Source: Mytilus edulis (lineage: Eukaryota). Taken from it: DNA of 64,000 nucleotides. Positions 5,251 through 58,370 of the stretch are shown here, piece after piece. A program made the translations under genes and the position numbers. The stretch spans positions 82,522,001 through 82,586,000 of the forward strand of contig NC_092349.1 in NCBI RefSeq assembly GCF_963676685.1, in the 5' to 3' direction. A model generated the notes under the pieces. It saw only the letters and a program-made list of their open reading frames with translations, ran no database searches and was not told the origin of the DNA. Each line of letters opens with the position of its first letter. Position 1 is the stretch's first letter.

Positions 5251-5568
5251 AAGGAAATCAGGATAGTGTTATCAATAATAAAGAAATGTAACGATGCAGT
5301 AAACGATAGTTTCGCCATAATTTTATCGAAATACATTTTATATTGGAGTTTTTTATTATAAAAAAGAGAAATCTTCTGTTCAATTAGATTTAACAGGTTT
5401 AAGATACATATATATATATAACTTTATTTCCTCTATTATAGAGATTTGGTGTACATGAAATATATAAATCAGAAAATTACAAAAAACAAAGAATTAAAGT
5501 CACCGTTTAAAGTTAATATGAGAAAAAAAAATTAGCACTGTCTATAATATCGGTAACGGACACATCTT

Positions 5569-8500
5569 CTATCGATTGTAGAAATCTCTGCAGATTGTTT
5601 CAACATGACGAACACAAGTCTTAGAGAAAAAAGTTAATTCATCATTTTCTAATTCATATGACGTATTGCAAGAGAGAATTGTTGTTGTGAATTCATGTGC
5701 CGAAAGACTGTCCATATAAACACTGAACTGAATGGGATTAATGTTAATAATGTCTTCCCATAGATCATCTCTTTTGTCTTGAATAAAATCACAGGATACC
5801 AGTAAGTGTTCAACGATATTCAAGAAGAACTTTCCACATTTGTCGCAAAGTAAATGTTCATCTTCGTAGCGTACTATAGAACATAAGTCAATCACATACT
5901 TGGCGGAGACACGAAGTTCGGGAAACTGTTTCGCAATTGTCCATGCTTTATGCGGTTTGATTGCAGAATGAATATGTCTAAACATATAAAAGTCATTATC
6001 GCATGAAATTCGGTAAGACCACCATGTTTCTTCACTTGCATTTATATTCTGATTTACAATAATTGACCAAAGTTTTTTTGATGGGAAAGAACCAGTATTT
6101 GCAAAATTAACAATATAATCTGTAATGTTATATTTTTCGGCTGCTTTATAGATGTCAGGTATAAAACGAAGTTGTTCTGGAACACATTTATGTTTGAATT
6201 CCATAAGTCTGCTTATCATTATTCGTTTTGGTAACGCAGAAGACTTTAACCTACATAGTCTACCAAAAAATAAAAGTTTACATCTGTTGATAATGCTTTC
6301 AACTGAAAACCAACCTAGAAGACTTGTACACTTGTCAGAACGGGTTCGTTTTGGAAGCCCTTGAATAATTTTACACACAAATCTGTGAGATCTTTCTAAC
6401 ATCGTAAGTTCTGTTTGAGTCAAATTGTTCCATAACTCACAACCATATAGAGCTTTGCTGTAACATATTTGAAGTATTATCTTGGAACACGTCAAAGGGT
6501 TTAAAATTGATGGATGAATTCCAGAATTTAGAACTGAAAGAGCAGTTGATCGCAACACTCTACAAGCATTCAACGTCTGGTCCATTGATCTAAATTTACA
6601 GTTCAGAAGAATACCGACATGTTTGGCAGACGTCACGAGTGGTATGATGTCATTATACAAAGTTAAATTGCTTGTAACATTCTTGTTCTTCTTTGAATAA
6701 CGTAAGACGTTGCTTTTAGTCGGAGAAAACTTGAATGCCCACTTCTCGCTATATGTCTGACAAATGTTAATAAGTTGTTGCATTCCTTTTTCTGTTGTTG
6801 AGAGTAACGCAATGTCGTCGGCTTGAACAGAGCTGCTTACACTGATATCTAGAAGAACGCATCCCAATTTAGAGTCTTCAATGTCGCACAAAAGATCGTT
6901 TATGTATACTAAATATAACAGGGCGGATAAGACGCCACCTTGGCGAACGCCTCGTTTCAGTTCAAACCAACGAGATAGCCTACCATTGAACAGTACAGAA
7001 CTACGCATGTCACTGTATATTTCATCTATGAGCAGCCATAAATCACCGGTAACTCCATATTTATGTAGTTTATATAACAATGCATCATGCCATACGGTGT
7101 CGAAAGCTTTCGTGCTATCTAACAGCACAACAATAACATCACTGTTACGTTCAATATAATGACGAATCGGTTCTTGTAAGTTAAATGAAGCATGAATACT
7201 TGATAATTCCTTTTGGTATGCCATCTGAGATTGATGTGGAAACTTTATGTGCAAGGAGTCGAATCGAGGATAAAGAGACTTTTCGAATATCTTGGCGATA
7301 CAACTTGTTAACGATATACCGCGGTACGAATTGGGATCAGTTTTGTTTTTATTTCCACCTTTGAATAACGGTATAATTACACTTGTTTTCCAATCTAGAG
7401 GAGTATAACGTGTTTGTATTATTAGGTTGAATAGATTGCATAAGTGTTTTTGCAATGTTTTACCACCATATTTTATATGCTCATATGAAACGTTGTCTAA
7501 ACCTGTAGATTTGTTGTTACATAAACTTTTACAAATGTTGGAAATTTCTTCAAACTCAAATGGGTTGATTGGAGCTTTGATTTCCTTCTGCGTTTATCGT
7601 ATTTTATTCACTTCATGTTTTACCAAATTTATGTTTGCTGAATTTGTTAGCTTGCTATCAAACTGAAAAATGGATTCAAAATGGTACGCCCATGCTTCGC
7701 ATATTTCACTTTCGTTTGTATGAGTTATTCCATTTAAATTTAGTTCACGACAAAAAGTTTTCTGTTTACGTCTGCTTTTTAAGACCGACCATACATATCT
7801 TTGATCATTTTCGATAGACTCTACCATTCTGTTGGCAATGTTCATAATATGTTCGTTGTAAGCTTTATCCATTTCATTTCTGAAAGTCCGTTTTGCATGT
7901 TTGTAATCAGTAAAGAACTGATCGCTTCTATCGTGAACTTTTCCGTTCAGTATCCATAAACTGCGCTTATTTAGCATTGTTTTGTGTGATAGATCTACGA
8001 CTTTCGTCCAATAAGGCTTTATATGTTTCACAAATTGCTTATGTGGGAGTGTTTCTTTGTCAGCTTTTTGAACAGCAACTATAATAGTCTTATAGTAGAG
8101 CTCGATATCTTCATTGGTCGCTGGTAGTGACGGCATTTGAACAGACCATAAAAATTGTGAGACTGCAAATGAATAGTCATTAACTGAATTCATTTCTAAC
8201 GCTTTGGTCCACGATACTTTGTCAGCCATAACACTTTCGTATAAGTTGTCACTATCAGCACGACATTGTTCGATTAGTAAAGTACACGCGATAGGCTTGT
8301 GATCAGAAACGTTAAATATGCTTTCGTCTGGGACAAACACATTGTAAATATCTCGTGTATTTTCGTTATTTGTGACTATGTGATCTATCACTGTTTTAGG
8401 ACCATCCTCATAAGATTGAAATGTACATACCGGACCTTTGGCAAAGTCCTGAACATGTAATGATATACTGTTATTGTCAATAAGGAGACTTTCAAGACGT

Positions 8501-9021
8501 TGACTACGACGATCTTGAGTAAACGAATATCGGGGTCCACCAATCTTGCAATTGAAATCACCAAGAATATACACCGTCCCGTGGTTCGAATACGATTTGT
8601 ATGTGTCCATTAAGTATTCAAGTTCATTAACGAATGCTTCGTTGGGTTGTGTAATTGCTGGTAAGTATATAGACAGAAAAAATATACTAGGTAAATTAGG
8701 AAGTTTAAGTTCGATACCACATATCCTATTGCTATCAATTACTAATTCTGTGACATACGGAGATAAAGTTTTAGAGACCATAATCGCAACACCTCCACGG
8801 GCGCTATAACTGTATTTTTCAGGGCAGTGTTCATCGGCGCATTTTCCAAATACTAAATAGTTTTGTTTATCGATTGAATTAAGGAAGTGGAATTGTGATT
8901 TTCTAAGCCAGTGTTCAGATAAACAAATAATATCAATCTTATTATCATTTAAGAATTCTAGTAGATATGGTACTGCGGACATTATTCCGCGACAGTTCCA
9001 ACATGCTATGTTTAAAGACAT
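5569..9021 (-). CDS. LINE ORF2: apurinic endonuclease + reverse transcriptase + C-terminal zinc knuckle, split by one in-frame TAA (7594-7596)
   Basis: APE motifs WNCRG, LSEHWL, GGVAI, GDFN, IDHI, SDH; RT motifs YRGISL, LDSTKAFDTV, GVRQGGVLS, QADD; CDKC...EH...C. ORFs 7594-9021 and 5569-7455 share a frame and the gap reads *TQKEIKAPINPFEFEEISNICKSLCNNKSTGLDNVSYEHIKYGGKT. Confidence 0.93.
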
Positions 9022-10887
9022 TTATGGATGTTCGGTCTTTGTAGATAGAAAAACTGACCATGGAAGCCATTCTTTTAGAAAAATGCCTTCAGGCCAAAAA
9101 GACGGATCCCGTATTAAGGTTTCACATTGAGCATCGATATTAAGTTGTGCAGAAGCTGTTCGTCGATTTTGTTTATCAAAATATCTTAAATGTGTTACAT
9201 TAACACCTCTTGCAGCGAGATATTCACGCATAGATTCTTCACATGAATTGTGTTTGTCGATACCACCTACGTAGAATCTGGATACACGGTGTCTTGTTTT
9301 TTTAACAAATCCACGAAAATTGTCAACGGTTGTGGGATTACACATGGAAGTTGGAAAATGCACTTGTATATTTGTATTTTGTTCATTTCCAGTTATATTG
9401 TTGTTGGTGTTCTTGATTTTATTTGCTATTGAAGTAGACGAAGCTGGATTAACAATATTACTTTGTGCATGTATGTCTTTGACTAAAACGGACAGATTCG
9501 TAACATCAGAGGATCTGACGTGTTTTGTGTGTGAGTCAACTAGAGAATTGGAATGTTCATTAATGGAATTCCTTTGAATTGGCTCTTTGGACTGACTCAA
9601 ATCGGATTCGATCACATTGCAATTTTCTAATGCTTCAGCCGAAGCTTTAACTTGTTCAGATTTAGATTTTAGAATGTCTGCGTACGATTTTGTAGACTTG
9701 TCAAGGACTTTGACATCTTTCTCGGTGTTTATGATACGCTTTCGCAAATCACTAATTGACTTCGCATGAGAACAACAATCAATATTTACTTTTTTGAGTT
9801 CATCGTCAAATTCTTTCAGTTTATCACTCATGATGTTTGTCTTTGTTTTCAGACTTACAACGCCTTGCGCTCTTGTATCACTTAGCTGGTTAATTCTACA
9901 TGACTCAGATTTCACGCTTGAACGTAGTTCATTAACGTCTAGTTTTACTGTTTTAAAGTCGTTTTTTATTTTGTTTACATCTGTTGTTAACTGTTGAATG
10001 CTGTTTTCGTATTCATCCAGTTTGTTTCGGAAAGTTCCTGAACTTTTTTCAATTGCTAATTTATTTGATTTGCATGTCATTTCCGCTTCATGTGTAACGA
10101 CACTCATGTTGTTTACTGTTTTAGCTAAGTTTTCGTTGTTTTCTCGTAAGGATGAAATTTGATTCTGAAAGTTCCGTAACCGGTCATTGTTTTTCTGGTT
10201 AGCGTTGACCAGTTGCTTGTTTTCTCGTACTAATACAGATACTGTTTTATTAAGATATTCGATTTCCTGAGTGTAGTCGCCTTTCAATGTATTAATTTCT
10301 CTTTCTATGCGCACGAGAGACTCTTTCAGACACAAGTTCTGAGAAAATTCGCTGGAATGTGTTTGGTTATTTTCATCTGCTGTAGACATTTTTCGGGCAC
10401 TTTGCGTATGCGAACGAGTATTAAGTGTTAATCTTAAATCTTCCGTATATTCTCCGAGTGATGCTAAATAAAGCGCATAGCAATCGCTACCAAGTTTGTT
10501 TTCAACTGATTCACCGTTTGGTTTTCTAGGACAAAGACGCTTTTTAAGAGTTGCATTCAGATATGGAAAGTTATGTTGACATTTTGCAATTTCCAGAAGT
10601 GCGTAGCGAATGTCGTCAATTTCACAGTGAGCGTTTTGGCATTTATCAATTAATTTAGACACAAAGCTGTCTTTAGGTAAAGATAAAAGTTCTTCTTGGA
10701 TAAATTTTATTATCGATTCTGTTATGCTTGTATCGTTGCTTATGTTGCTTGTGTTGGAAGGAACATCTATTGTAATGTTAGTTTGTCTTTGTGACGAAAG
10801 AAGATCATCAAAAGGATCAAATTGGCTATCTATAAAACTCGAGTGAACAAGTAAATCGCTAGGTCTAAGTTCCGTTAGATTGTTCAT
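9022..10887 (-). CDS. LINE ORF1 (long coiled coil + C-terminal RRM-like domain)
   Basis: 621 aa intact; heptad-rich central region; C-terminal RFYVGGI...FWPEGI..KEW motif typical of non-LTR ORF1; lies immediately upstream of ORF2. Confidence 0.85.
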   Translation of the reverse strand: MNNLTELRPSDLLVHSSFIDSQFDPFDDLLSSQRQTNITIDVPSNTSNISNDTSITESIIKFIQEELLSLPKDSFVSKLIDKCQNAHCEIDDIRYALLEIAKCQHNFPYLNATLKKRLCPRKPNGESVENKLGSDCYALYLASLGEYTEDLRLTLNTRSHTQSARKMSTADENNQTHSSEFSQNLCLKESLVRIEREINTLKGDYTQEIEYLNKTVSVLVRENKQLVNANQKNNDRLRNFQNQISSLRENNENLAKTVNNMSVVTHEAEMTCKSNKLAIEKSSGTFRNKLDEYENSIQQLTTDVNKIKNDFKTVKLDVNELRSSVKSESCRINQLSDTRAQGVVSLKTKTNIMSDKLKEFDDELKKVNIDCCSHAKSISDLRKRIINTEKDVKVLDKSTKSYADILKSKSEQVKASAEALENCNVIESDLSQSKEPIQRNSINEHSNSLVDSHTKHVRSSDVTNLSVLVKDIHAQSNIVNPASSTSIANKIKNTNNNITGNEQNTNIQVHFPTSMCNPTTVDNFRGFVKKTRHRVSRFYVGGIDKHNSCEESMREYLAARGVNVTHLRYFDKQNRRTASAQLNIDAQCETLIRDPSFWPEGIFLKEWLPWSVFLSTKTEHP

Positions 10888-11138
10888 GATATATTATATA
10901 TGTTGTGAATCGCTGAAAACAGTTCACAGTGATCTGATTTTGAAAATCAATACAGTCATGTTTATGAAGTAATATCTGTAAATGTATTTAAATTCTTTTT
11001 TATCAATATGGTGTTGTTGAAAGTATGGAATGATCTCACCAAATTCTTGATCTTTGAAGATGTATGAAAACTGTCCTATTCTAGAATAATAACAAGAGCA
11101 CATTAACAGCACGTCCTTCACTAAAGGGACTGGTTTGT

Positions 11139-11806
11139 GACGGCTGCAGTGCAGGCGATTTGGTGTCACGATATCACAGTAGCATGGGTTCGAATCCCGG
11201 CGAGGGAAGAACCAAAAATTTGCGAAAGCAAATTTACAGATCTAACATTGTTGGGTTGATGTTTAGACGAGTTGTATATACATTATGTACACAGCCATGT
11301 ATCACCATCATTGATGGCGATCCGATGGATACATCTGTTGTAGAGTTGTCATTGACTCAGACGTACTTATAAATATAATTATTTTCTGTGACTGTATATT
11401 ACATTAATTTGTAGGATCCTTTACTATAGATAATTTAGCTGATCTGTAACAATAACATCTTCATGCCTTATATATCATGTACTGTAGTACGCCGCTAGAT
11501 TAAAACTGACGAGGAAAGGTAACACACGGCCATCGAAAGCTCTTTTAGTGAGAGCCCAGGTGGTCGTGTGGTCTAGCGGGACGGCTGCAGTGCAGGCGAT
11601 TTGGTGTCACGATATCACAGTAGCATGGGTTCGAATCCCGGCGAGGGAAGAACCAAAAATTTGCGAAAGCAAATTTACAGATCTAACATTGTTGGGTTGA
11701 TGTTTAGACGAGTTGTATATACATTATGTACACAGCCATGTATCACCATCATTGATGGCGATCCGATGGATACATCTGTTGTAGAGTTGTCACTGACTCA
11801 GACGTA
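11139..11806 (+). repeat. 1.5 tandem copies of a 441-bp structured unit (227-bp direct repeats at 11139-11365 and 11580-11806)
   Basis: Offset exactly 441; one mismatch seen (attgactc/actgactc); ends in (TA)n at 11805-11828. Confidence 0.95.
11554..11648 (+). ncRNA. tRNA-derived head with internal Pol III promoter (not a functional tRNA)
   Basis: A-box TGGTCGTGTGG (11561-11571), B-box GGTTCGAATCC (11628-11638) in a T-arm hairpin, long variable-arm-like hairpin; acceptor and anticodon stems poorly paired. Confidence 0.7.
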
Positions 11807-11909
11807 TATATATATATATATATATATAAATAAGCAGTGAATGGGGTTGTTTAATTTGATAGATGCTTTTGTGCTTTTTAGTTAAATATTTGTGTGTTTT
11901 TTTCTAATT

Positions 11910-12210
11910 GAGATTGTGACACATTGATGACTGCTGTACACCTTTTTTTTGACAATTTTACCTATTGTGTCTGTTTTGTTGTAAATATAATGGAATTTAA
12001 TACGACTGTCATACAAGTGAGCGGTTAACCGCTATAAAACCAGGTTCAATCAATCATTTTCTACAGTTGAAAATGCCTGTACCAAGTCAGGAATATCACA
12101 GTTGTTGTCCATTCGTTTAATGTGTTTTATCATTTGATTTTGCCATTTGACTAGGGACTTTCCGTTTTGAATTTTCCTCGGAGTTCTGTATTTTCGTGAT
12201 TTTACTTTTT
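11910..12210 (+). repeat. Dispersed SINE-like repeat (other copies ~13090-13300, ~17200-17460, ~60780-61060)
   Basis: Shared actgtcatacaagtgag...aaaatgcctgtaccaagtcaggaatat...gtgattttacttttt. Confidence 0.75.
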
Positions 12211-14133
12211 ATTATATAATATAATTTAAAGAAGAGAAATCATGACTGTAAATGAAGACTAACATACGCTACCTTAACGTATCCAATGCTTCCAAAGACG
12301 TGTTCCACGTCAGAAATAATTGTTATCACTTTAAACCTAATAATCTAAACAGCTTCTGGGCGATTGAAAGACCACAAATCAAAACTTCAGAAGAACCACA
12401 CGATATGAAGTTGAACATGTACTGGATACAGATATGATACAAAATCTATAAGATTCGTTTATGTGTACTTTGGGAAGCTTATACAAATTGCAAACCTTGC
12501 GCTGTCCAGTTGTTGTTGATGCATGTTCATTTACGACCTTTTCTTCAGTAAAAGTTAGGATATACCGTGACGACGCGTACTGGTATATGTGTGATCTCAG
12601 TTTTGGGTAATTCACTCAGTTTGTAATTAGGTAAACGACCAAACCAGCACAAGGAGCTGGTAAAGTGGTTGTATGAAAATTGCACTTGTCTCAGAATATA
12701 TTTAAATATTAAGGTATATAGGAATATTTTTTTCTGACACAAGTGCCTGTGGATATATATAAGAAAATTCAATTTAGAAAACTTATTTAAAATTCGTAAT
12801 TGCAAATAATCATATATAAATTAGATCATATATTTTTTTAGACATAACTGATTGAAATAAAAAATAAAAAAGAATGTCCGAATCATACGTCTGACATATA
12901 CTTAGATACTCAAATATTAAAATTCCTATAGAAACGAATCGATAGCATAACATTTCAAAAGAAGAAAGATACACATTTTTATGTCATGATAATTACATTG
13001 GTAATCCGTTTCATTATTTATTCAATGTGTAATAATGATGATGTTACAAGATTAAGAAATAATTCCAATTACAAAAAAACCTGAAACGTATACTGTCATT
13101 CAAGTGAGAGGTTTAGCTAGCCATAAAAACAGGTTCAATCCACAATTTTCTACATAAGAAAATGCCTGTACCAAGTCAGGAATATGACAGTTGTCATCCA
13201 TTCGTTTGATGTGTTTGAGCTTTTGATTTTGCCTTTTGATAAGGGACTTTCCTTTTTGAATTTTCCTCGGAGTTCAGAATTTTTGTGATTTTACTTTTTA
13301 TTTGTCTCTGTGTGTACTAGATTACTATTTCGTTTAAACTTAGAGATGATAAGATGAAACGTCTGGTGTCTCTATGTAATATAAAAGTCTTGAATAATTT
13401 AGCAATTTATAAAATATCACTATATAAATTGTATAATTATACATTTATAGTGAATATAATAAATTATCAATGAATTAGAGGAGTTTTATTAAATGCCAGG
13501 AATAATGCTAAAAGAGAACAAAGAAAAATAAGATTAATGATTTTCGAAAAATGTTGAGAATAATTTTATTTCATTTTCAATGAAACCCAGACGTCTGGTT
13601 GTCAGTGTTATTTCATTTGTAAATTAAATTCGTATTAAACTACGAGTAGTACAAACACATGTCCAATAAGTGCGATGGATCATTCCTATTAATTACCCAT
13701 ACTTCACGTCTTTCTGTTGTCTCCTCAACATTTCCATTCGTAAATGTATTTCGAGTTATACTCCAGAAAAATGTCTTCGTGATTTTTTTCTAATTAGACT
13801 TTCTAAACAGGCGGAAAGTCCAAATATAAGACCATGTAAACGTAACCAAATACTTGTGTAGGATTGTTTAATTAAACTCTGCTATCTTCACGACGTAAAT
13901 ATTTTCAGTTTGGGAAAACGAGAGATAACTAAAAATACTAAAAAAATCGACTACGCAGTTTTGATTAATATTTTAAAACAACTAATTAGTTTGTAAAAAT
14001 AGTGGGCATCATCAAATCATATTAATCATTGGTATACTTATATAACCTAATGCTATCGGAGTTCCAATAGATAACGAAATCCGAGAGGTGATACGTTCAC
14101 CTGTTGTAATCTCACGAAACGAAAATAAACCCG

Positions 14134-32280: not shown

Positions 32281-33176
32281 TAATTTGTATATACATTACT
32301 AAATATATCAATTACGTGGAAAACAAAAGGGTCTGGAGTGGTGTAATTTTAATCTACACCTTTGTACTATATTAGTTATATATAAAGCTGAATTCTTTGA
32401 TTCGTCGTTTTAACGTGATGACGGCTGACAAATTGGACCTCGTAATTTTAGTATTATAGATAGATGTATATGTTTTGTTAACAGTAACTTTAAATCAGTA
32501 ATACGATTAAGTTTTACGATTTACTTTATTATTTTATTTTTCTTTATATTGTGCTACATCTGAATGTGCAATCTCCGTCGTGCAAGGCTTTGCCATACTT
32601 TAAACGAAATGCTAACTAAAAAAAATGGTGAACTGCAAACCTATGTGAATGTAATCAGTGTATACTTGATAGTACGAGTAACAAGCTTTGGCTTAATCAT
32701 TTCAAATTGAAACACTCCGATTTATTTTCGGAGACAACAAGAGAAAATGAAAGAATCATCAGTTTCTGACACATTAAATTCTACGAGATCAAGAAAGTTT
32801 TTTTTTCATTTTCCAATATGAATTTAGTACAAACGCCATAGTTGGTACGGTGTATTTGATTACTAAAAGTCAAACTTCGTCAGGAATCTTCACAAACAAG
32901 TCTTATAATACCAAAGAACAATAACTTCAATTCAGCGTATTATAAAAAAGTAAATGTATGACTTGGATGGAAGGTTGTCACATTAACACTCATACCACAT
33001 CTTCTATATATATGTGTGTAGCGTACTATAGATAAGGCCTTCAAACATCAACATAAACTACCGGTTAACCGGTTAATCGGTCGAACGATTATCCGAGTAA
33101 CCGGTTAGGCAAAGGCGTGCGATATGACAACACTAAAATAAACTTATCTAAGATACCAGGATTTAATTTCGTATTT

Positions 33177-33220
33177 ACGCCGGACGCGCTTTTCGTCTAC
33201 AAAAGACTCATCAGTGACGC
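33177..33220 (-). ncRNA. Minimal type I hammerhead ribozyme motif (family B), catalytic core intact
   Basis: Minus strand: GCGUCA CUGAUGA GUCU-uuugu-AGAC GAAA AGCGCG UC^ CGGCGU. Confidence 0.75.
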
Positions 33221-33535
33221 TCGAATTCGAAAAAGTTGAAAAGGTCAAATAAAGAGCGTTGAGGACCAAAATTCCTAAAAGTTTTGCCAAATACAGCGAA
33301 TGTAATACATGTATATTCCTGAGACAGAAAAGCCTTAGTATTTCAAAAATTCTAAATTTTTGTCAATAGTTAATTTATAAAGATGACCATAGCAATGATA
33401 ATTCATGTCAACACAGAAGTGTAAATATCTGCTACAACCTCTCTTTTCAAATTAAGGCCAAATTACGTGTCAAAAGATTTTATTAAGACATTAAAAAGTA
33501 ATTTACACTGACAAACATCTAGATAGTTTCATGAC

Positions 33536-35870: not shown

Positions 35871-37248
35871 ACTCTGAATTCTGCAGTAATAACATGACTC
35901 AGTTTTGCAGGGGCAAGACAGATGTCCTCATGATTTAAACAGTGATTTGCTTTTATAATATGAGAAACATTAACATATTTTGTTTTTGACTGGGTTTTTC
36001 ATATCATTTGATAACTTTACCTTCTATGTCTATAATTTCAAAAGGAAGTGTATTGTGTAAGGAAATTGAATGTCATGATAATCCCTCAACTATTGAATAT
36101 AAATTGTTTATCAAAAAAGTAAACTAGGGGGAATATCAGTACACATCAACAACCTACCACTAATAATAAATAAACATGCAAACAAAGTCAAACAGTGAAC
36201 CAAACACGGTCAAGAAAACTGGACTTGGTATACCAACAAAACGGGGTTTGGTTAAACCCCATATCTAACCTAACGTGTTAAAACACGCAAACTATTTAAG
36301 GTTTTACTTATCTAGAGCATAGTTTAACCATCCTGTATATAGTTATTTCATTTTTTTATGATTTTCATAATATTCTTTACACTTGAATTGAAATAAAGTC
36401 CTACTCAATTTTTTTTAATTTCAATCATGGAATGAGTGCAAGTTACACTTGGCTTATCTTACTCAGACTTATAAGAGTTTGGGAAAGTGGTTTCTTTTTT
36501 TCTGATGAAAATTGGGCATTGTATAAGGGAAACTCCTAAAACATGAAAGGATATTTTACAGATTTGTATTTAATGACCAATAAATGAAAGACTTTTTTAA
36601 AGATTATGACATTCTTACTTCGTTCTTTATTTTATTTTTTCAATTATTTTTTGTTGGATCATCAGTGATGAGTCTTCTGTAGAGGAAATATGTGCATTTG
36701 GTCTACAAAATTATAAGCCTGGTATCTTTGATGAGATTTTACAGGCCCATACATAGGACCAAGTCTTCAATTGTTTTACACTTGTCATTTCGAAGACTTT
36801 TGCAGTTGACTATGCAGTATGGGCTTTGCTCATTGTTAAAGGGTATATATTGACCTATAGTTGTTAACTTCTGTGCGATTTGGCCTCTGGTGGAGAGTTA
36901 TCTCATTGGCAATCATACCACATCTTCTATTTTTAAATAAGATTAGTGTTGGCTGGATAAAACTCTGATACAAGATGAGAGGAAAAAAAGTTTACATGTA
37001 TATCTTTTAATCATGGATTTATCTAAGAAATGAATGTACATGGTTATTAACATGTTGAAATGAAATGATATTAGACAATCAATTGTTATTGTTCCTATGA
37101 TTGACAGATTCTCATGTGTCCATTATGGGAACCAATATCCATTGTTCCTTCAGGTTTAGACCAGCTAAACTTATTATTTCAACAAAATACATTTTCTGTT
37201 GAAATACAATTGTTTGTACATTTCACAATAATGTTGCAGATTTTGGTT

Positions 37249-40200
37249 TCATATGTCACCATCCTGTCGTTCTCTTACTGCATCCTAAAATACATAAAAA
37301 GATTAATTAGTTTGGATCATAGATGCTCATCATTTTAACAAAATTATGAAATCAATACCGCAGTATGAAACATTAAACTAGAGGCTCTCAAGAGCCTGTA
37401 TCGCTCACCTGATTCTACTTGGGTTTTTGAAATCATATGAAAAAATATAAAATTTGGCTAAAAGTGACAACACAACCTCATTGATAAGGAAAGGAACATG
37501 TTTAATTTCATTCAAAAGTCCCCCACTGGCGGCCATCTTGGATGGCGGATCGGCTACAAAGTAACAACACTTGGTCAGCACCTCATAAGGAACATTCATG
37601 CCATGTTTAGTTTTATTCCATTCAGTGGTTCTCTAAAAGAAGTCATTTGTATGCATTTCCCATAGGGTCCTATGTTAAACTAAGTCCCCTGCTGGCGGCC
37701 ATCTTGGATGATGGATCTGCTACAAAGTAACAACACTTGGTCAGCACCTCATAAGAAACATTCATGCAATGTTCAGTTTTATTCCATTCAGTGGTTCTCT
37801 AAAAGAAGTCATTTGTATGCATTTCCCATAGGGTCCTATGTTAAACTAAGTCCCTGCTGGCGGCCATCTTGGATAATGGATCGGCTACAAAGTAACAACA
37901 CTTGGTCAGCACCACATTAGGAACATTCATGCCATGTTTGATTTCATTCCATTCAGTGGTTCTCTAAAAGAAGTCATTTGTATGCATTTCCCATAGGGTC
38001 CTATGTTAAACTAAGTCCCATGCTGGCGGCCATCTTGGATGATGGATGGGCTACAAAGAAACAACACATGGTCAGCACGGCATAAGAAACATTCATGCAA
38101 TGTTTGGTTTCATTCCATTCAGTTGTTCTCTAAAAGAAGTCATTTGTATGCATTTCCCATAGGGTCCTATGTTAAACTAAGTCCCCCGCTGGCGTCCATC
38201 TTGGATAATGGATCGGCTACAAAGTAACAACACTTGGTCAGCACCACATTAGGAACATTCATGCCATGTTTGATTTCATTCCATTCAGTGGTTCTCTAAA
38301 AGAAGTCATTTGTATGCATTTCCCATAGGGTCCTATGTTAAACTAAGTCCCCCGCTGGCGGCCATCTTGGATGATGGATTGGCTACAAAGTAACAACACT
38401 TGGTCAGCACTCCATAAGGAACATTCATGCTATGTTTGGTTTCATTCCATTTAGTGGTTCTCTAGAAGAAGTCATTTGTATGCATTTCCCATAGGGTCCT
38501 ATGTTAAACTAAGTCCCCCGCTGGCGGCCATCTTGGATGATGGATCGGCTACAAAGTAACAACACTTGGTCAGCACTCCATAAGGAACATTCATGCTATG
38601 TTTGGTTTCATTCCATTTAGTGGTTCTCTAGAAGAAGTCATTTGTATGCATTTCCCATAGGGTCCTATGTTAAACTAAGTCCCCCGCTGGCGGCCATCTT
38701 GGATGATGGATCGGCTACAAAGTAAAAACACTTGGTCAGCACCCCATAAGGAACATTCATGCTATGTTTGGTTTTATTCCATTCAGTGGTTCTCTAAAAG
38801 AAGTCATTTGTATGCATTTCCCATAGGGTCCTATGTTAAACTAAGTTCCCGGCTGGCGGCCATCTTGGATAATGGATCGGCAACAAAGTAACAACACTTG
38901 GTCAGCACCTCATAAGGAACATTCATGCCATGTTTGGTTTCATTCCATTCAGTGGTTCTCTAGAGGAAGTCATTTGTATGCATTTCCCATAGGGTCCTAT
39001 GTTAAACTAAGTCCCCCGCTGGCGGCCATCTTGGATGATGGATCGGCAACAAAGTAACAACACTTGGTCAGCACCTCATAAGGAACATTCATGCCATGTT
39101 TGGTTTCATTCAATTCTGTGGTTCTCTAAAAGAAGTCATTTGTATGCATTTCCCAAAGGGTCCTATGTTAAACTACGTCCCCTGCTGGCGGCCATCTTGG
39201 ATGATGGATCGGCTACAAAGTAACAACACTTGGTCAGCACCCCATAAGGAACATTCATGCTATGTTTGGTTATATTCCATTCAGTGGTTCTCTAAAAGAA
39301 GTCATTTGTATGCATTTCCCATAGGGTCCTATGTTAAACTAAGTCCCCGGCTAGCAGCCATCTTGGATGATGGATCAGCAACAAAGTAACAACACTTGGT
39401 CAGTACCTCATAAGGAACATTCATGCCATGTTTGGTTTCATTCCATTCAGTGGTTCTCTAAAAGAAGTCATTTGTATGCATTTCCCATAGGGTCCTATGT
39501 TAAACTAAGTCCCCCGCTGGCGGCCATCTTGGATGATGGATCGGCTACAAAGTAACAACACTTGGTCAGCACCTCATAAGGAACATTCATGCCATGTTTG
39601 GTTCCATTCCATTCAGTGGTTCTCTAGAAGAAGTTCAAAATGTAAATTGTTAACGACGACGACGGCGGACGACGACGGACGCCAAGTGGTGAGAAAAGCT
39701 CACTTGGCCCTTCGGGCCAGGTGAGCTAAAAATTGACCACCTGATATATGTAAAGAAAAAAAAGACACTGTCAAAGATATCTACTAATATAATTTCATAC
39801 GGTTGAACGTAGTCAATTAGAGTGAAATTATTTTCTCTTGTCTTTTTATGATGTATAGGTGTCGTACCTATCGTGTGGTCAGTTTCCCGCCAAAACAGGG
39901 GTTTTGGTCATTCAGCCTGACAGCGCCAAAGCAAGAGGTTCTCATCTAAACACTTGGTAATTTTTAATTTATTCAATAAGTCCCCTTTTTAGTTATTTAT
40001 AAGATATATAGGATTGATAGGACTTGAGGGTTGTTTTTCTTTTTGGTATTATATTGAGTGAAGTATATAGTTTCGATATGTGTTTTTGAATGTTCAGGTG
40101 TAACATATTTAATAAACATAGAAGCAGCATTGTCGTGTAGCTTCCCACTTTAATTATGAGTTTTGCATTCTTTATACTTATACAGTAAATGGTTTTTCAA

Positions 40201-48900: not shown

Positions 48901-50111
48901 AACGGATATTTCATCCGTTGGACGTCCGTTCATAGTTTAGAGTTTTTCAAGTTTTCCACCGGACAGAACGGACGTCGACGAATAAAACGTACGTTAAACG
49001 GACATGCAACGGATATGGACGGACGTCTAACGGATAAGAACGGACGTCTATAACAGACATGAACGGATTGAAAAAAAGTTATCCGTTAGGCGTCCGTTCG
49101 AGCTATCCGTTAAGGTGTGACCGAGGTTTTACCTTTTGGGTTATAAATATATTGTACTTTCTACAAATAACTGAAAAAGAAATGCTAATTGTCGAAAGCC
49201 GTATGGTGACCTATAGTTGTAAAATATACATGCCACTGATTTGGTTTCTTGAGAAGAGTGGTCTCATTGGCAAAAAACAACATCTTCTTTTTTATATGCA
49301 CTAAATAATGTTTACGTATACGTCCATGCAGGCCAATTTGTCAGCATTATTTCATTACGCATACAGTTATTTTTATTTATTCAAGTTTATTAAGATATCC
49401 AATTTCCTTCTGAAATGCTCTGGTCTACGACAGAAAGTCACTCTGAATTAAGATAAGTGTTTAATTTTTTTATAAATTTCCTGTTGACAAAACTTTTAAC
49501 TTTTCGAAAAAACATAGGATTTTCTTATCCCAGGAATAGATTACCTTACCGTTTTTGGCATAACTTTGGGGAATTTTGGGTCCTCAATGCTCTTCAACTT
49601 TGTACGTGTTTGGCTTTATAACTTTTTTGATCTGAGCGTCACTGGTGAGTCTTATTTAGACGATATGCGCGTCTTGCGTATTAAATTATAATCCTGGTAC
49701 ATGTACCTTTGATAACTATTTAACCGGGCAGGTACCACAATTCATTAAGTTTAACTCTAAATCGTATACGTTTAATCCAAGCACGTACCACAATGCATTT
49801 AGACTATACAAGTGCAGTCCATTATCTAGTTGAATATGAATATATTTATTTATGTATGACACCAATATAATTTTATTGCCTGTCCATTATGAAAATTGTA
49901 TTTTTTTGTTATTTATATCATCTTTTCTATGCGATTTCTATCTACAAAATCTCTACAACTACATAAAAAGCAAATTATAAAATTAGAATAACTCATTTTT
50001 TCTGACACCAACTTTTTTTCTTTCAGATTGTTATCGTTGTATCCGAATGAAGAAATAATGACAATAAGATGGCCTATTTTTATGCTACTTGGAACCAAGC
50101 CCACGGCGTAG
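45919..50111 (+). CDS. Class I SAM-dependent methyltransferase (Methyltransf_11; DDB_G0268948/Crg1-like); exons 45919-46458, 47342-47439, 48014-48145, 50027-50111
   Basis: YAQFRPDYP, DIGCGTGQ, GVDVSEKQI, AQALHW, RVLRPGG, YITSWSAWQ, IRWPIFMLLGTKP; GT-AG introns in phase. Confidence 0.9.
48215..49128. mobile_element. PIF/Harbinger-like MITE with ~48-bp TIRs and many AACGGA repeats
   Basis: cctcggtcacaccttaccggatagcacgaacggacgcctaacggat / atccgttaggcgtccgttcgagctatccgttaaggtgtgaccgagg; TA-rich flanks. Confidence 0.8.
49636..49679 (+). ncRNA. Degenerate hammerhead motif (family B) inside a dispersed repeat (~49470-49720)
   Basis: GCGUCA CUGGUGA GUCU-uauuu-AGAC GAUA UGCGCG UC UUGCGU; two core substitutions; flanks homologous to 33140-33420. 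Confidence 0.6.
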
Positions 50112-57888: not shown

Positions 57889-58370
57889 TACACGTTATGA
57901 ATTTCATGCGTCCGAAGCGATTTTCTGGATTTACCATTCATCAGAAACGCCCAAAGCCGAATATTTGAAAGCCTTAGATGTATAAGAACCTAAACAGACG
58001 AAAAGCTATGTAACCAAAAAGGACATGCATAAAACAGCCAAATCCATCTACGGTCAACTTTGCCAGAGGGATTTCAGTGAAACCTTAGCTCCCAACAATT
58101 TCGAAGTTCATTAACGGACAAGTTTTTAAATGGGTTGTTATAAATTATGTCAGTACCGAATTACTGACTACTAAGCTGATGGTACACTTGGGGACGAATA
58201 GTCCACCAGTAGAGGTATCGACCCAGTGCTGTAAAATGTGAAAACAACACGTTATAAATGTCATGCGCCCGATGCGCTTTTGTGGATTCACCTTCATCAG
58301 GAACGCTCAAAGTCGACTATTTGAAAGCCACGGATGTATAAGAACCTAAACAGTTCAAGAGATATATAGC
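57889..58370 (-). mobile_element. Retrozyme-like tandem repeat (357-bp period, ~1.3 units) with a hammerhead motif in each unit (family A)
   Basis: Hammerheads at 57908-57950 and 58265-58306; related units at ~59361-59480, ~50990-51290, ~19550-19720. Confidence 0.7.
57908..57950 (-). ncRNA. Minimal type I hammerhead motif (family A), core boxes intact
   Basis: GCGUUU CUGAUGA a UGG-uaaau-CCA GAAA AUCGCU UC^ GGACGC. Confidence 0.68.

What the first reader, a model, noticed from the sequence alone, without database searches (positions are those of the whole stretch)
11139..11806. 441-nt unit is a dense structured RNA whose leader base-pairs over its own tRNA A-box
Seen: CCGCTAGA(~11493) pairs with TCTAGCGG(11572); CACACGGCCA(11523) pairs with TGGTCGTGTG(11561, the A-box); an apical hairpin GCTCT-tttagtg-AGAGC closes this long rod. 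Further hairpins: AAATTTGC-GAAA-GCAAATTT (GNRA loop), ATGTATC..CCATCA-T-TGATGG..GATACAT, and AACATT...GATGTT. The leader/tRNA rod can form only in a read-through multimer or circle, not in a Pol III monomer starting at the tRNA head. Inference: selection acts on a concatemeric or circular RNA form, as in retrozymes and Pol III tandem retroelements. The Pol III promoter points away from the LINE, antisense to its leader.
Basis: partly seen in the sequence, partly recalled or inferred. Interest (0 to 1): 0.75.

Follow-up and report, generated by a model that had tools for sequence, protein, structure and literature searches.

The report
Circular tRNA-headed retroelement, ribozyme dispensable
This 441-base unit is one of thousands of copies of a small, tRNA-derived jumping element that lands in TA repeats and makes an abundant rod-folded RNA, likely a circle copied round and round by a borrowed Penelope-type enzyme and likely closed without the self-cutting ribozyme that known elements of this kind need.

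Summary
The helices are real, and the rod is under selection (z -6.2; rebuilt with compensatory changes in older subfamilies and a 475-nt sister family). The other named hairpins are mostly not significant.

The unit is a young non-autonomous retroelement with over 4,800 copies and a tRNA-Leu-derived head. 3' ends are fixed at two internal AGAC...TATA sites inside (TA)n, 5' ends are random, and arrays are short. Array units share private mutations and junction alleles, which fits rolling reverse transcription of one circular RNA. Neptune-type Penelope elements share the end motif and are fused to the unit, so they are the likely helpers.

RNA reads are abundant, plus-strand, cross both junctions and rarely leave the unit. 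A minimal hammerhead core lies in the rod, but it is degenerate in the most expressed subfamily and absent in the sister family.

Circularity and the ligation route are untested. The scan noted this family before on other DNA (e1-9541180).

The parts
11139..11806 (+). One insertion of the 441-nt element (1.5 turns): unit 1-441, then 1-227; 5' end arbitrary, 3' end at internal priming site 2
11492..11579 (+). Conserved rod: CCGCTAGA/TCTAGCGG, asymmetric loop, CACACGGCCA/TGGTCGTGTG, apical hairpin with U-rich loop
   Evidence: z -6.19; same geometry in subfamilies B and D and in the sister family; covariation
11478..11594 (+). Long-range 11-bp helix closing the rod (11478-11488 with 11584-11594; in a circle with 11143-11153)
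   Evidence: kept with different letters in subfamily D and the sister family
11543..11549 (+). U-run / hypervariable junction at the apex; likely Pol III terminator joined to the start site (majority allele T7G; here TTTTAGTG)
   Evidence: 22 alleles, top allele 19 of 63, against 75-93% at six control windows
11550..11645 (+). tRNA-Leu-derived head: likely start near 11550, tRNA +1 at 11554, A-box 11561-11571, B-box 11628-11638
   Evidence: alignment to genomic tRNA-Leu(AAG); not called as a tRNA by ARAGORN; start site inferred
11187..11197 (+). B-box of the first turn (its A-box is lost by 5' truncation)
11500..11549 (+). Degenerate minimal type I hammerhead: CUGACGA 11506-11512, 2-bp stem II, GAAA 11535-11538, palindromic stem III, predicted site after C11542
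   Evidence: only hammerhead block hit in the unit; all features in 26 of 71 A, 0 of 14 B, 0 of 16 C and 0 of 29 D copies; no Rfam hit
11516..11525 (+). AAGGTAACAC, invariant in both families, role unknown; about 45% of RNA fragments end just here
11216..11235 (+). GNRA hairpin (second copy 11657-11676); not kept in the sister family
11244..11280 (+). Main 3' priming site: small hairpin, AGACG, then TATATA (unit 127-142; second copy 11685-11721)
   Evidence: 46 of 65 chains end at unit 135-142
11357..11377 (+). Second 3' priming site (AGACG then an AT-rich patch); its copy at 11798-11806 is the end used at this locus
   Evidence: 9 of 65 chains end at 238-239
11382..11385 (+). Internal T4; read through in RNA
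   Evidence: depth does not fall behind it
11805..11828 (.). (TA)12 target or tail at the 3' end
11131..11138 (.). 8-nt linker at the head-to-head joint between the LINE 5' end and the element 5' end
5409..11130 (-). Neighbouring APE-RT LINE (ORF1 10887-9022; ORF2 9021-5569 with one in-frame stop; (AT)n tail), lacking its first 5 nt; not part of the element

Best explanation
The unit is a non-autonomous, tRNA-Leu-headed retroelement that inserts into (TA)n and makes an abundant plus-strand RNA, which is likely a unit-length circle, likely reverse-transcribed in rolling fashion by a Neptune-type Penelope-like enzyme and likely closed by a host ligase rather than by its own degenerate hammerhead. 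Steps: (1) inferred: Pol III starts near G11550 in a copy longer than one turn and stops in the U-run one turn later. (2) Predicted, with covariation support: the 5' ~45 nt and 3' ~70 nt zip into the rod, which masks the A-box and puts both ends in one small apical hairpin. (3) Inferred: the ends are joined there, leaving a junction that differs between insertions but not within one. (4) Shown: copies end at two internal AGAC-N-TATA sites inside (TA)n and begin anywhere. Inferred: a nicked TA repeat anneals there and primes the helper RT, which runs round the circle for 0.2-7 turns. This window's copy has only 257 nt behind its promoter, so it is likely a dead end.
For: Copy number: 4,819 exact B-box 28-mers and 3,114 exact rod 34-mers, controls 0. 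Ends: 46 of 65 chains end at unit 135-142 and 9 of 65 at 238-239; starts span 1-422. Of 30 B-box-anchored loci, 25 reach the head and 19 of those run on through the U-run, so there is no wall at the start site. Units of one array share 1.54 private variants per pair (28 pairs) against 0.15 between arrays (675 pairs). Junctions are identical within arrays in 33 of 55 and 9 of 10 pairs, between arrays in 136 of 1170 and 262 of 1071. RNA: 524-723 reads per million in 3 runs of one study, 90-99% one strand, 535-915 reads across the unit-unit joint, depth 740-1260 over the U-run; only 46-83 reads (4-7%) leave the unit at position 142, where 17 of 25 genomic copies end. Helper: 13 of 40 GIY-YIG loci hold the unit, about 1.3 expected; TA-free head-to-head fusions with three PLE families (L102, L135, L146) and one tandem fusion (L139); two PLE families have two alternative 3' ends with TAGAC-N-TATA, like the unit. 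Ribozyme dispensable: a 99-100% identical 475-nt sister family has the same rod, ends and arrays but no CUGA core at this place; 85-89% of RNA reads carry A9U.
Against: Circularity is not shown: short reads cannot tell a circle from a long multimer, and an unassembled long array is not excluded. U7 dominates both DNA (17 of 38 arrays) and RNA (one U less 12-15%, one more 7-8%); termination plus ligation should scatter the run more. Some older copies have no T4 at the apex. A triphosphate 5' end is not an RtcB substrate (recalled), so a trimming step is missing. No sharp 5' or 3' end is called in the reads. The fourth run (second study) has 33 reads per million, no clear strand bias, and 66% run into other sequence. 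Strand rests on the usual library convention. No sequence homology to a PLE was found beyond the short motif, and two other PLE families lack it. The sister family's RNA was not examined.
Confidence: 0.55

Rival explanations
1. A true retrozyme with a captured Pol III head (like Schistosoma Sm-alpha): read-through precursors are cut by the minimal hammerhead working as a dimer, and RtcB closes the circle at C11542/U11543.
For: The window copy has every minimal-hammerhead feature, with a palindromic stem III and G10.1-C11.1, as described for PLE min-HHRs (PMC4209133). It explains a templated U7. CUGANG is kept in 122 of 130 family-1 copies.
Against: All features in only 26 of 130 copies; B has A9U in 14 of 14; C and D have 0-2 bp of stem I. 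Forced hammerhead stems cost 24 kcal/mol against the rod. Arrays exist whose units all carry G5A (L008) or a broken G10.1 (L029). No depth step at the site (967 to 930). The sister family lacks the core. Variation peaks 4-7 nt behind the predicted site, not at it.
Confidence: 0.2
2. No covalent circle: the template is a linear monomer whose rod holds the ends together so that the RT jumps from the 5' end back to the 3' end, or a linear multimer from longer arrays.
For: A linear monomer from 11550 folds the whole rod. Junction variability fits jumps with added bases. Depth rises about 20% at the predicted start. PLE-unit fusions show that the RT does switch templates.
Against: Rare junction alleles repeat exactly through an array (4 of 4 in L020, 3 of 3 in L025, 4 of 4 in L029). 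Most RNA reads cross the junction. Multimers from typical short arrays should enter the flank at position 142 far more often than 4-7%.
Confidence: 0.18
3. An ordinary tRNA-SINE or satellite with fixed ends, multiplied in tandem at the DNA level; the RNA is passive read-through and the fold is incidental.
For: It has a tRNA-derived head with A and B boxes. Tandem SINE arrays are known in bivalves (PMC11481361). Half of the unit folds no better than shuffles.
Against: Copies are circularly permuted, with 3' ends in the middle of the unit and 5' ends anywhere. No convincing target-site duplication in 13 loci. The rod is kept by compensatory change. The RNA is one-stranded and confined to the unit.
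Confidence: 0.05

Closest known systems
Metazoan non-LTR retrozymes (Cervera and de la Pena 2020, PMC7229834: abstract to discussion read, supplement not readable; Li et al. 2026 preprint 10.64898/2026.07.22.740005: parts 1-3 of 5 read; review PMC7761336: passages)
   Same: Short non-coding tandem units, AT-rich, abundant structured RNA, proposed rolling reverse transcription from a circle, PLEs as the suspected helper.
   Different: Defined by a working type I hammerhead and said to carry no promoter (PMC7761336). This element has a tRNA-derived promoter, a degenerate or absent hammerhead, a 441/475-nt unit and (TA)n targeting. The genome holds a separate 356-nt repeat with a canonical hammerhead (26,078 matches, Rfam RF00163 E 2e-5) that fits the published 350-390 bp mussel retrozyme and shows no homology to this unit.
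Schistosoma Sm-alpha / Sj-alpha SINE-like elements (seen only through passages of PMC6765202 and PMC2770079; the primary paper was not held)
   Same: tRNA-derived Pol III promoter in tandem units together with a hammerhead; single copies lose the ability to propagate.
   Different: There the hammerhead is active in vitro and frees monomers from multimers. Here it is degenerate or absent, a U-run abuts the start site, and the ends lie in (TA)n at internal sites.
Neptune/Nematis-type Penelope-like elements and their pLTRs (Craig et al. 2021, PMC8557442: passages; Cervera and de la Pena 2014, PMC4209133: parts 1-2 of 4)
   Same: (TA)n targets, unclear target duplications, 5' truncation, tandem and inverted insertions, minimal hammerhead-like core, shared TAGAC-N-TATA end motif.
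   Different: No ORF, no alignable pLTR homology found, own tRNA-derived promoter; unit loci do not continue into a common PLE body.
Tandem tRNA-SINE arrays of bivalves (Martelossi et al. 2024, PMC11481361: passages) and Ajax/Helenus TRIMs (Kojima 2024, PMC10886601: passages)
   Same: Small-RNA-derived promoter in a non-autonomous element, sometimes in tandem, in bivalves.
   Different: Those have fixed heads and tails with LINE partners, or LTRs with PBS and PPT. 'Penelope', 'circular' and 'rolling' do not occur in the main text of PMC11481361.

Membership tests
Non-LTR retrozyme | Short non-coding tandem units, dispersed, from dimers to multimers | tested here: met
Non-LTR retrozyme | Intact type I hammerhead in each unit | tested here: not met
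   all features in 26 of 130 family-1 copies, none in the most expressed subfamily, core absent in the sister family, no Rfam hit
Non-LTR retrozyme | Self-cleavage in vitro | not testable with these tools
   no depth step at the predicted site
Non-LTR retrozyme | Abundant unit-length circular RNA | tested here: inconclusive
   abundant, stranded, continuous and unit-confined reads; covalent closure not testable with short reads
Non-LTR retrozyme | No promoter of its own | tested here: not met
   A and B boxes from tRNA-Leu; promoter activity itself untested
tRNA-derived SINE | tRNA-related head with A and B boxes | tested here: met
tRNA-derived SINE | Fixed 5' head and 3' tail; copies at most one unit long | tested here: not met
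   permuted copies; 19 of 25 cross the start site; 3' ends internal
tRNA-derived SINE | 3' tail shared with a LINE partner, target-site duplications | tested here: not met
   no unit homology in 8 loci of the neighbouring LINE family; no convincing duplication in 13 loci; other LINE families not tested
tRNA-derived SINE | Transcribed by Pol III | not testable with these tools
   inferred from the boxes and the U-run
Non-autonomous PLE-dependent element | Same target and insertion anatomy as PLEs of the genome | tested here: met
   (TA)n ends, inversions, co-location in 13 of 40 loci, direct fusions
Non-autonomous PLE-dependent element | Sequence derived from a pLTR | tested here: inconclusive
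   only the TAGAC-N-TATA motif and the twin-end layout are shared; 6 PLE families compared
Non-autonomous PLE-dependent element | Mobilised in trans by the PLE protein | not testable with these tools
   inferred from the fusions
Non-circularly permuted hammerheads (SGC, CSG, GCS; PMC10085705, passages) | Blocks C, G and S with stems I-III in any order | tested here: not met
   only the weak type I hit in family 1, and one weak hit with a non-standard core at a non-homologous place in the sister family
Match to a described Dfam/Repbase family | Library identity | not testable with these tools
   no repeat library is held

The most novel reading that the evidence does not exclude
A class of 'circular SINEs': Pol III transcripts whose own ends are zipped into a rod and ligated without any ribozyme, and which then use internal AGAC-TATA mimics of Penelope 3' ends to be copied by rolling reverse transcription into TA repeats. 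Family 1 would still carry the decaying hammerhead of a pLTR ancestor and the sister family would have lost it, catching the step from retrozyme to ribozyme-free circle.
Probability: 0.4. Interest if true: 0.82.

Novelty: new variant of a known kind. Interest (0 to 1): 0.63.

Why it matters
Retrozyme mobilisation by Penelope-like elements has been proposed from co-occurrence and pLTR phylogeny. Here young insertions show direct PLE-unit fusions and a shared priming motif, which makes a trans-mobilisation assay straightforward. If the RNA is a circle, it would be a natural, promoter-carrying, ribozyme-independent route to an abundant animal circRNA, and it raises a testable question about how a Pol III transcript's ends are joined. 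I found no description of such an element in 9 full-text searches. Repbase and Dfam could not be checked and may list it as a SINE or satellite.

Tried and rejected
- Rfam on 10800-12000: 8 chance-level hits, none to a ribozyme or tRNA. ARAGORN: 0 genes in the window.
- The unit as the LINE's leader or promoter: rejected.
- My first reading, an active PLE-type minimal hammerhead retrozyme (stated), was lowered.
- HDV-like ribozyme on the minus strand, twister, pistol and back-splicing at AAG/GTAA: considered by eye against recalled consensus features and dropped because the flanking stems do not form or the skipped piece is never missing. These were not run as formal searches.
- Permuted hammerheads.
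- An antigenomic RNA (viroid-like replication): the 1-10% opposite-strand reads follow the profile of truncated genomic copies; no support.
- Whether LINE and unit entered one TA site in one event: the left flank is unique, so the empty site cannot be rebuilt; open.
- AGAC before TA runs not belonging to the unit: 34 of 326 flanks against 6 in a shorter control window (11 versus 7 start places); weak.
- Loci with duplicated flanks (L018, L023, L048) and overlapping loci of one array were dropped before the counts. The 40 PLE loci include some overlaps, and the expectation there assumes 8,000 independent sites.
- Not readable: the supplement of PMC7229834 (it holds the mussel retrozyme sequences, so non-identity rests on unit size and on the separate 356-nt family) and PMC5785218, PMC108972 and PMC108974.

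Full report
1. Observation. The region is one full 441-nt unit (11139-11579) plus 227 nt, followed by (TA)12. The unit folds better than shuffles (linear z -4.78; circular z -4.45). The signal lies in the rod (z -6.19) and in an unnoticed 11-bp helix below it. The ATGTATC and AACAT helices have pair probabilities near 0.2, and unit 126-351 is no better than chance.

2. A dispersed young family. The own-genome search gave arrays of 1 to 4.5 units at 96-99% identity (40 of 369 candidates scored). Exact patterns give lower bounds of 4,819 B-box and 3,114 rod matches. The host is likely a Mytilus mussel; this comes from earlier notes of the scan and from the 356-nt repeat described below, not from a tool label. 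The LINE to the left is an APE-RT element. Its four other full-length copies end 5 nt further and carry no unit, and only the window's own locus among 30 joins the two.

3. Insertion anatomy. In 40 loci taken in order along contig C1, 46 of 65 chains end at unit 135-142, 9 at 238-239 and 10 elsewhere. The fixed ends run into (TA)n, and starts are spread over 1-422. Inverted pieces are common. No convincing target duplication was seen in 13 loci. Both end sites read AGAC, a few bases, then TATA. Of 30 B-box-anchored loci, 5 stop within unit 9-44, 6 within 413-435, and 19 continue through the U-run (two of them older variants, read by eye). The template is therefore continuous across the likely start site. 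Units of one array share private variants ten times more often than units of different arrays, so each array was likely multiplied from one molecule.

4. The phase of the unit. The head aligns with this genome's tRNA-Leu: +1 at 11554, A-box 11561-11571, B-box 11628-11638. Directly in front lies a T-run, T7 in the majority. That spot is by far the most variable window tested (22 alleles, top allele 30%, against 75-93% at six controls including two homopolymers), yet it is nearly constant inside arrays. I read it as terminator joined to start. The 'leader' is then the 3' end of the transcript, and the rod is the 5'/3' terminal stem, which a linear monomer also forms. This window's copy extends only 257 nt behind its promoter and could not give a unit-length RNA.

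5. Selection on the rod. Older subfamilies and a 475-nt sister family, found beside PLEs and alignable over its whole length, fold the same four stacked helices (z -4.7 to -6.4). On 19 distinct rows, 99% of cells pair and 12 cells change on both sides against 3.1 in shuffles (0 of 500), at 3 of 16 pairs; RNAalifold finds 6 of 22 pairs with double changes. These are few independent events, the structure was derived from the same sequences, and the tRNA side is also constrained as a promoter. The GNRA hairpin is not kept in the sister family.

6. The hammerhead. 11500-11549 reads as a minimal type I hammerhead of the PLE kind (PMC4209133), and it is the only block hit in the unit. All features are met in 26 of 71 A copies and in none of 14 B (all A9U), 16 C or 29 D copies (stem I 0-2 bp). 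The rod buries it by 24 kcal/mol, and the sister family, with 99-100% identical arrays of up to 7 or more units, has no core at this place. The genome's canonical retrozyme is another, unrelated 356-nt repeat.

7. RNA. Three runs of one study give 524-723 reads per million, 90-99% from one strand (the plus strand under the usual convention), with coverage over the whole unit, the U-run and the unit-unit joint. Only 4-7% of reads leave the unit at position 142, where 17 of 25 genomic copies end. Depth does not fall after the internal T4. The A9U subfamily B makes up about 60-75% of reads against 30 of the first 100 genomic matches (different individuals). There is no step at the predicted cleavage site, a 20% rise at the predicted start, and a 45% fall just 5' of the rod's second helix, most simply read as the last place where priming is possible. 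A fourth run from a second study shows little, unstranded, mostly embedded signal. Short reads do not prove a circle.

8. The helper. GIY-YIG loci hold PLEs with a C-terminal endonuclease behind a CX2-5CxxC motif, the Neptune/Nematis layout of PMC8557442, and they end in (TA)n. 13 of 40 such loci contain the unit. Three show TA-free head-to-head fusions with three PLE families and one shows a tandem fusion. Two PLE families have two alternative 3' ends about 90 nt apart, each with TAGAC-N-TATA, like the unit's two ends 97 nt apart; two other families lack the motif. Shared targets alone could explain the co-location, while the fusions point to one enzyme.

9. Mechanism and rivals. Best (0.55): a Pol III monomer, ends zipped and ligated at the apical hairpin, then rolling reverse transcription by a PLE enzyme primed at (TA)n. 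Shown: anatomy, ends, expression, covariation, fusions. Inferred: Pol III, start and stop sites, covalent circle, ligase, helper. Rivals: a dimeric hammerhead with RtcB (0.2), a linear template with RT jumps or multimers (0.18), an ordinary SINE (0.05). The dominance of U7 in both DNA and RNA and the missing end-trimming step are the weak points of the best explanation.

10. Comparison and verdict. It works like a non-LTR retrozyme but fails two defining features (intact hammerhead, no promoter). It has a SINE head but not SINE ends. Sm-alpha is the closest known mix of promoter and tandem unit. Nine literature searches found no description; repeat libraries were not available. Earlier notes of this scan reached a similar reading on another copy and on an element in another genome; I saw them after my own turn away from the hammerhead, and they are not independent evidence. 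Verdict: real, a new variant of a known kind, interest 0.63.

Noticed in passing
L187:1188-1662 (G000:C11:39.43 Mb) and L180-L209: Sister family with a 475-nt unit, 99-100% identical copies, the same rod and tRNA head, one fixed 3' end and no hammerhead core; 682 candidates in the own genome.
   Followed up: partly
window 5409-11138: The LINE's 5' end meets the element's 5' end head-to-head with (TA)n on both outer sides, the same layout as the PLE-unit fusions; it may be a single two-ended insertion event. The LINE family has five full-length copies at 98-100% over the 5' stretch compared, and this copy has one stop in ORF2.
   Followed up: partly
window 33144-33421, 36666-36743, 49467-49722, 58147-58235; L238:1501-1856: Pieces of the separate 356-nt canonical-hammerhead retrozyme, with about 26,000 core matches in the genome and a fixed 3' end near unit position 72-76 that is not in (TA)n.
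   Followed up: partly
L133 and L135 3' UTRs; L131, L130: PLE families with two alternative 3' ends about 90 nt apart; minimal hammerhead-like cores read by eye in the 3' UTRs of the 959-, 791- and 784-aa families; the 784- and 791-aa families have an upstream ORF of about 420 aa.
   Followed up: partly
L136:1370-4528 (-): 1,053-aa ORF with an N-terminal GIY-YIG and C-terminal RT, the Naiad layout.
   Followed up: no
G000:C2:53.80-53.91 Mb (L210-L221) and C7:21.41-21.44 Mb (L222): Long tandem tRNA gene arrays: a 1.28-kb unit with tRNA-Leu(AAG) and an ARAGORN call of tRNA-SeC on opposite strands, and a 409-bp unit with a second Leu-like gene.
   Followed up: no
window 37516-39634: 166-bp tandem array of 12.8 copies, in the size range of mussel satellites (recalled).
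   Followed up: no
window 12011-12210 and 13105-13300: Two copies of another short interspersed repeat right of the element.
   Followed up: no
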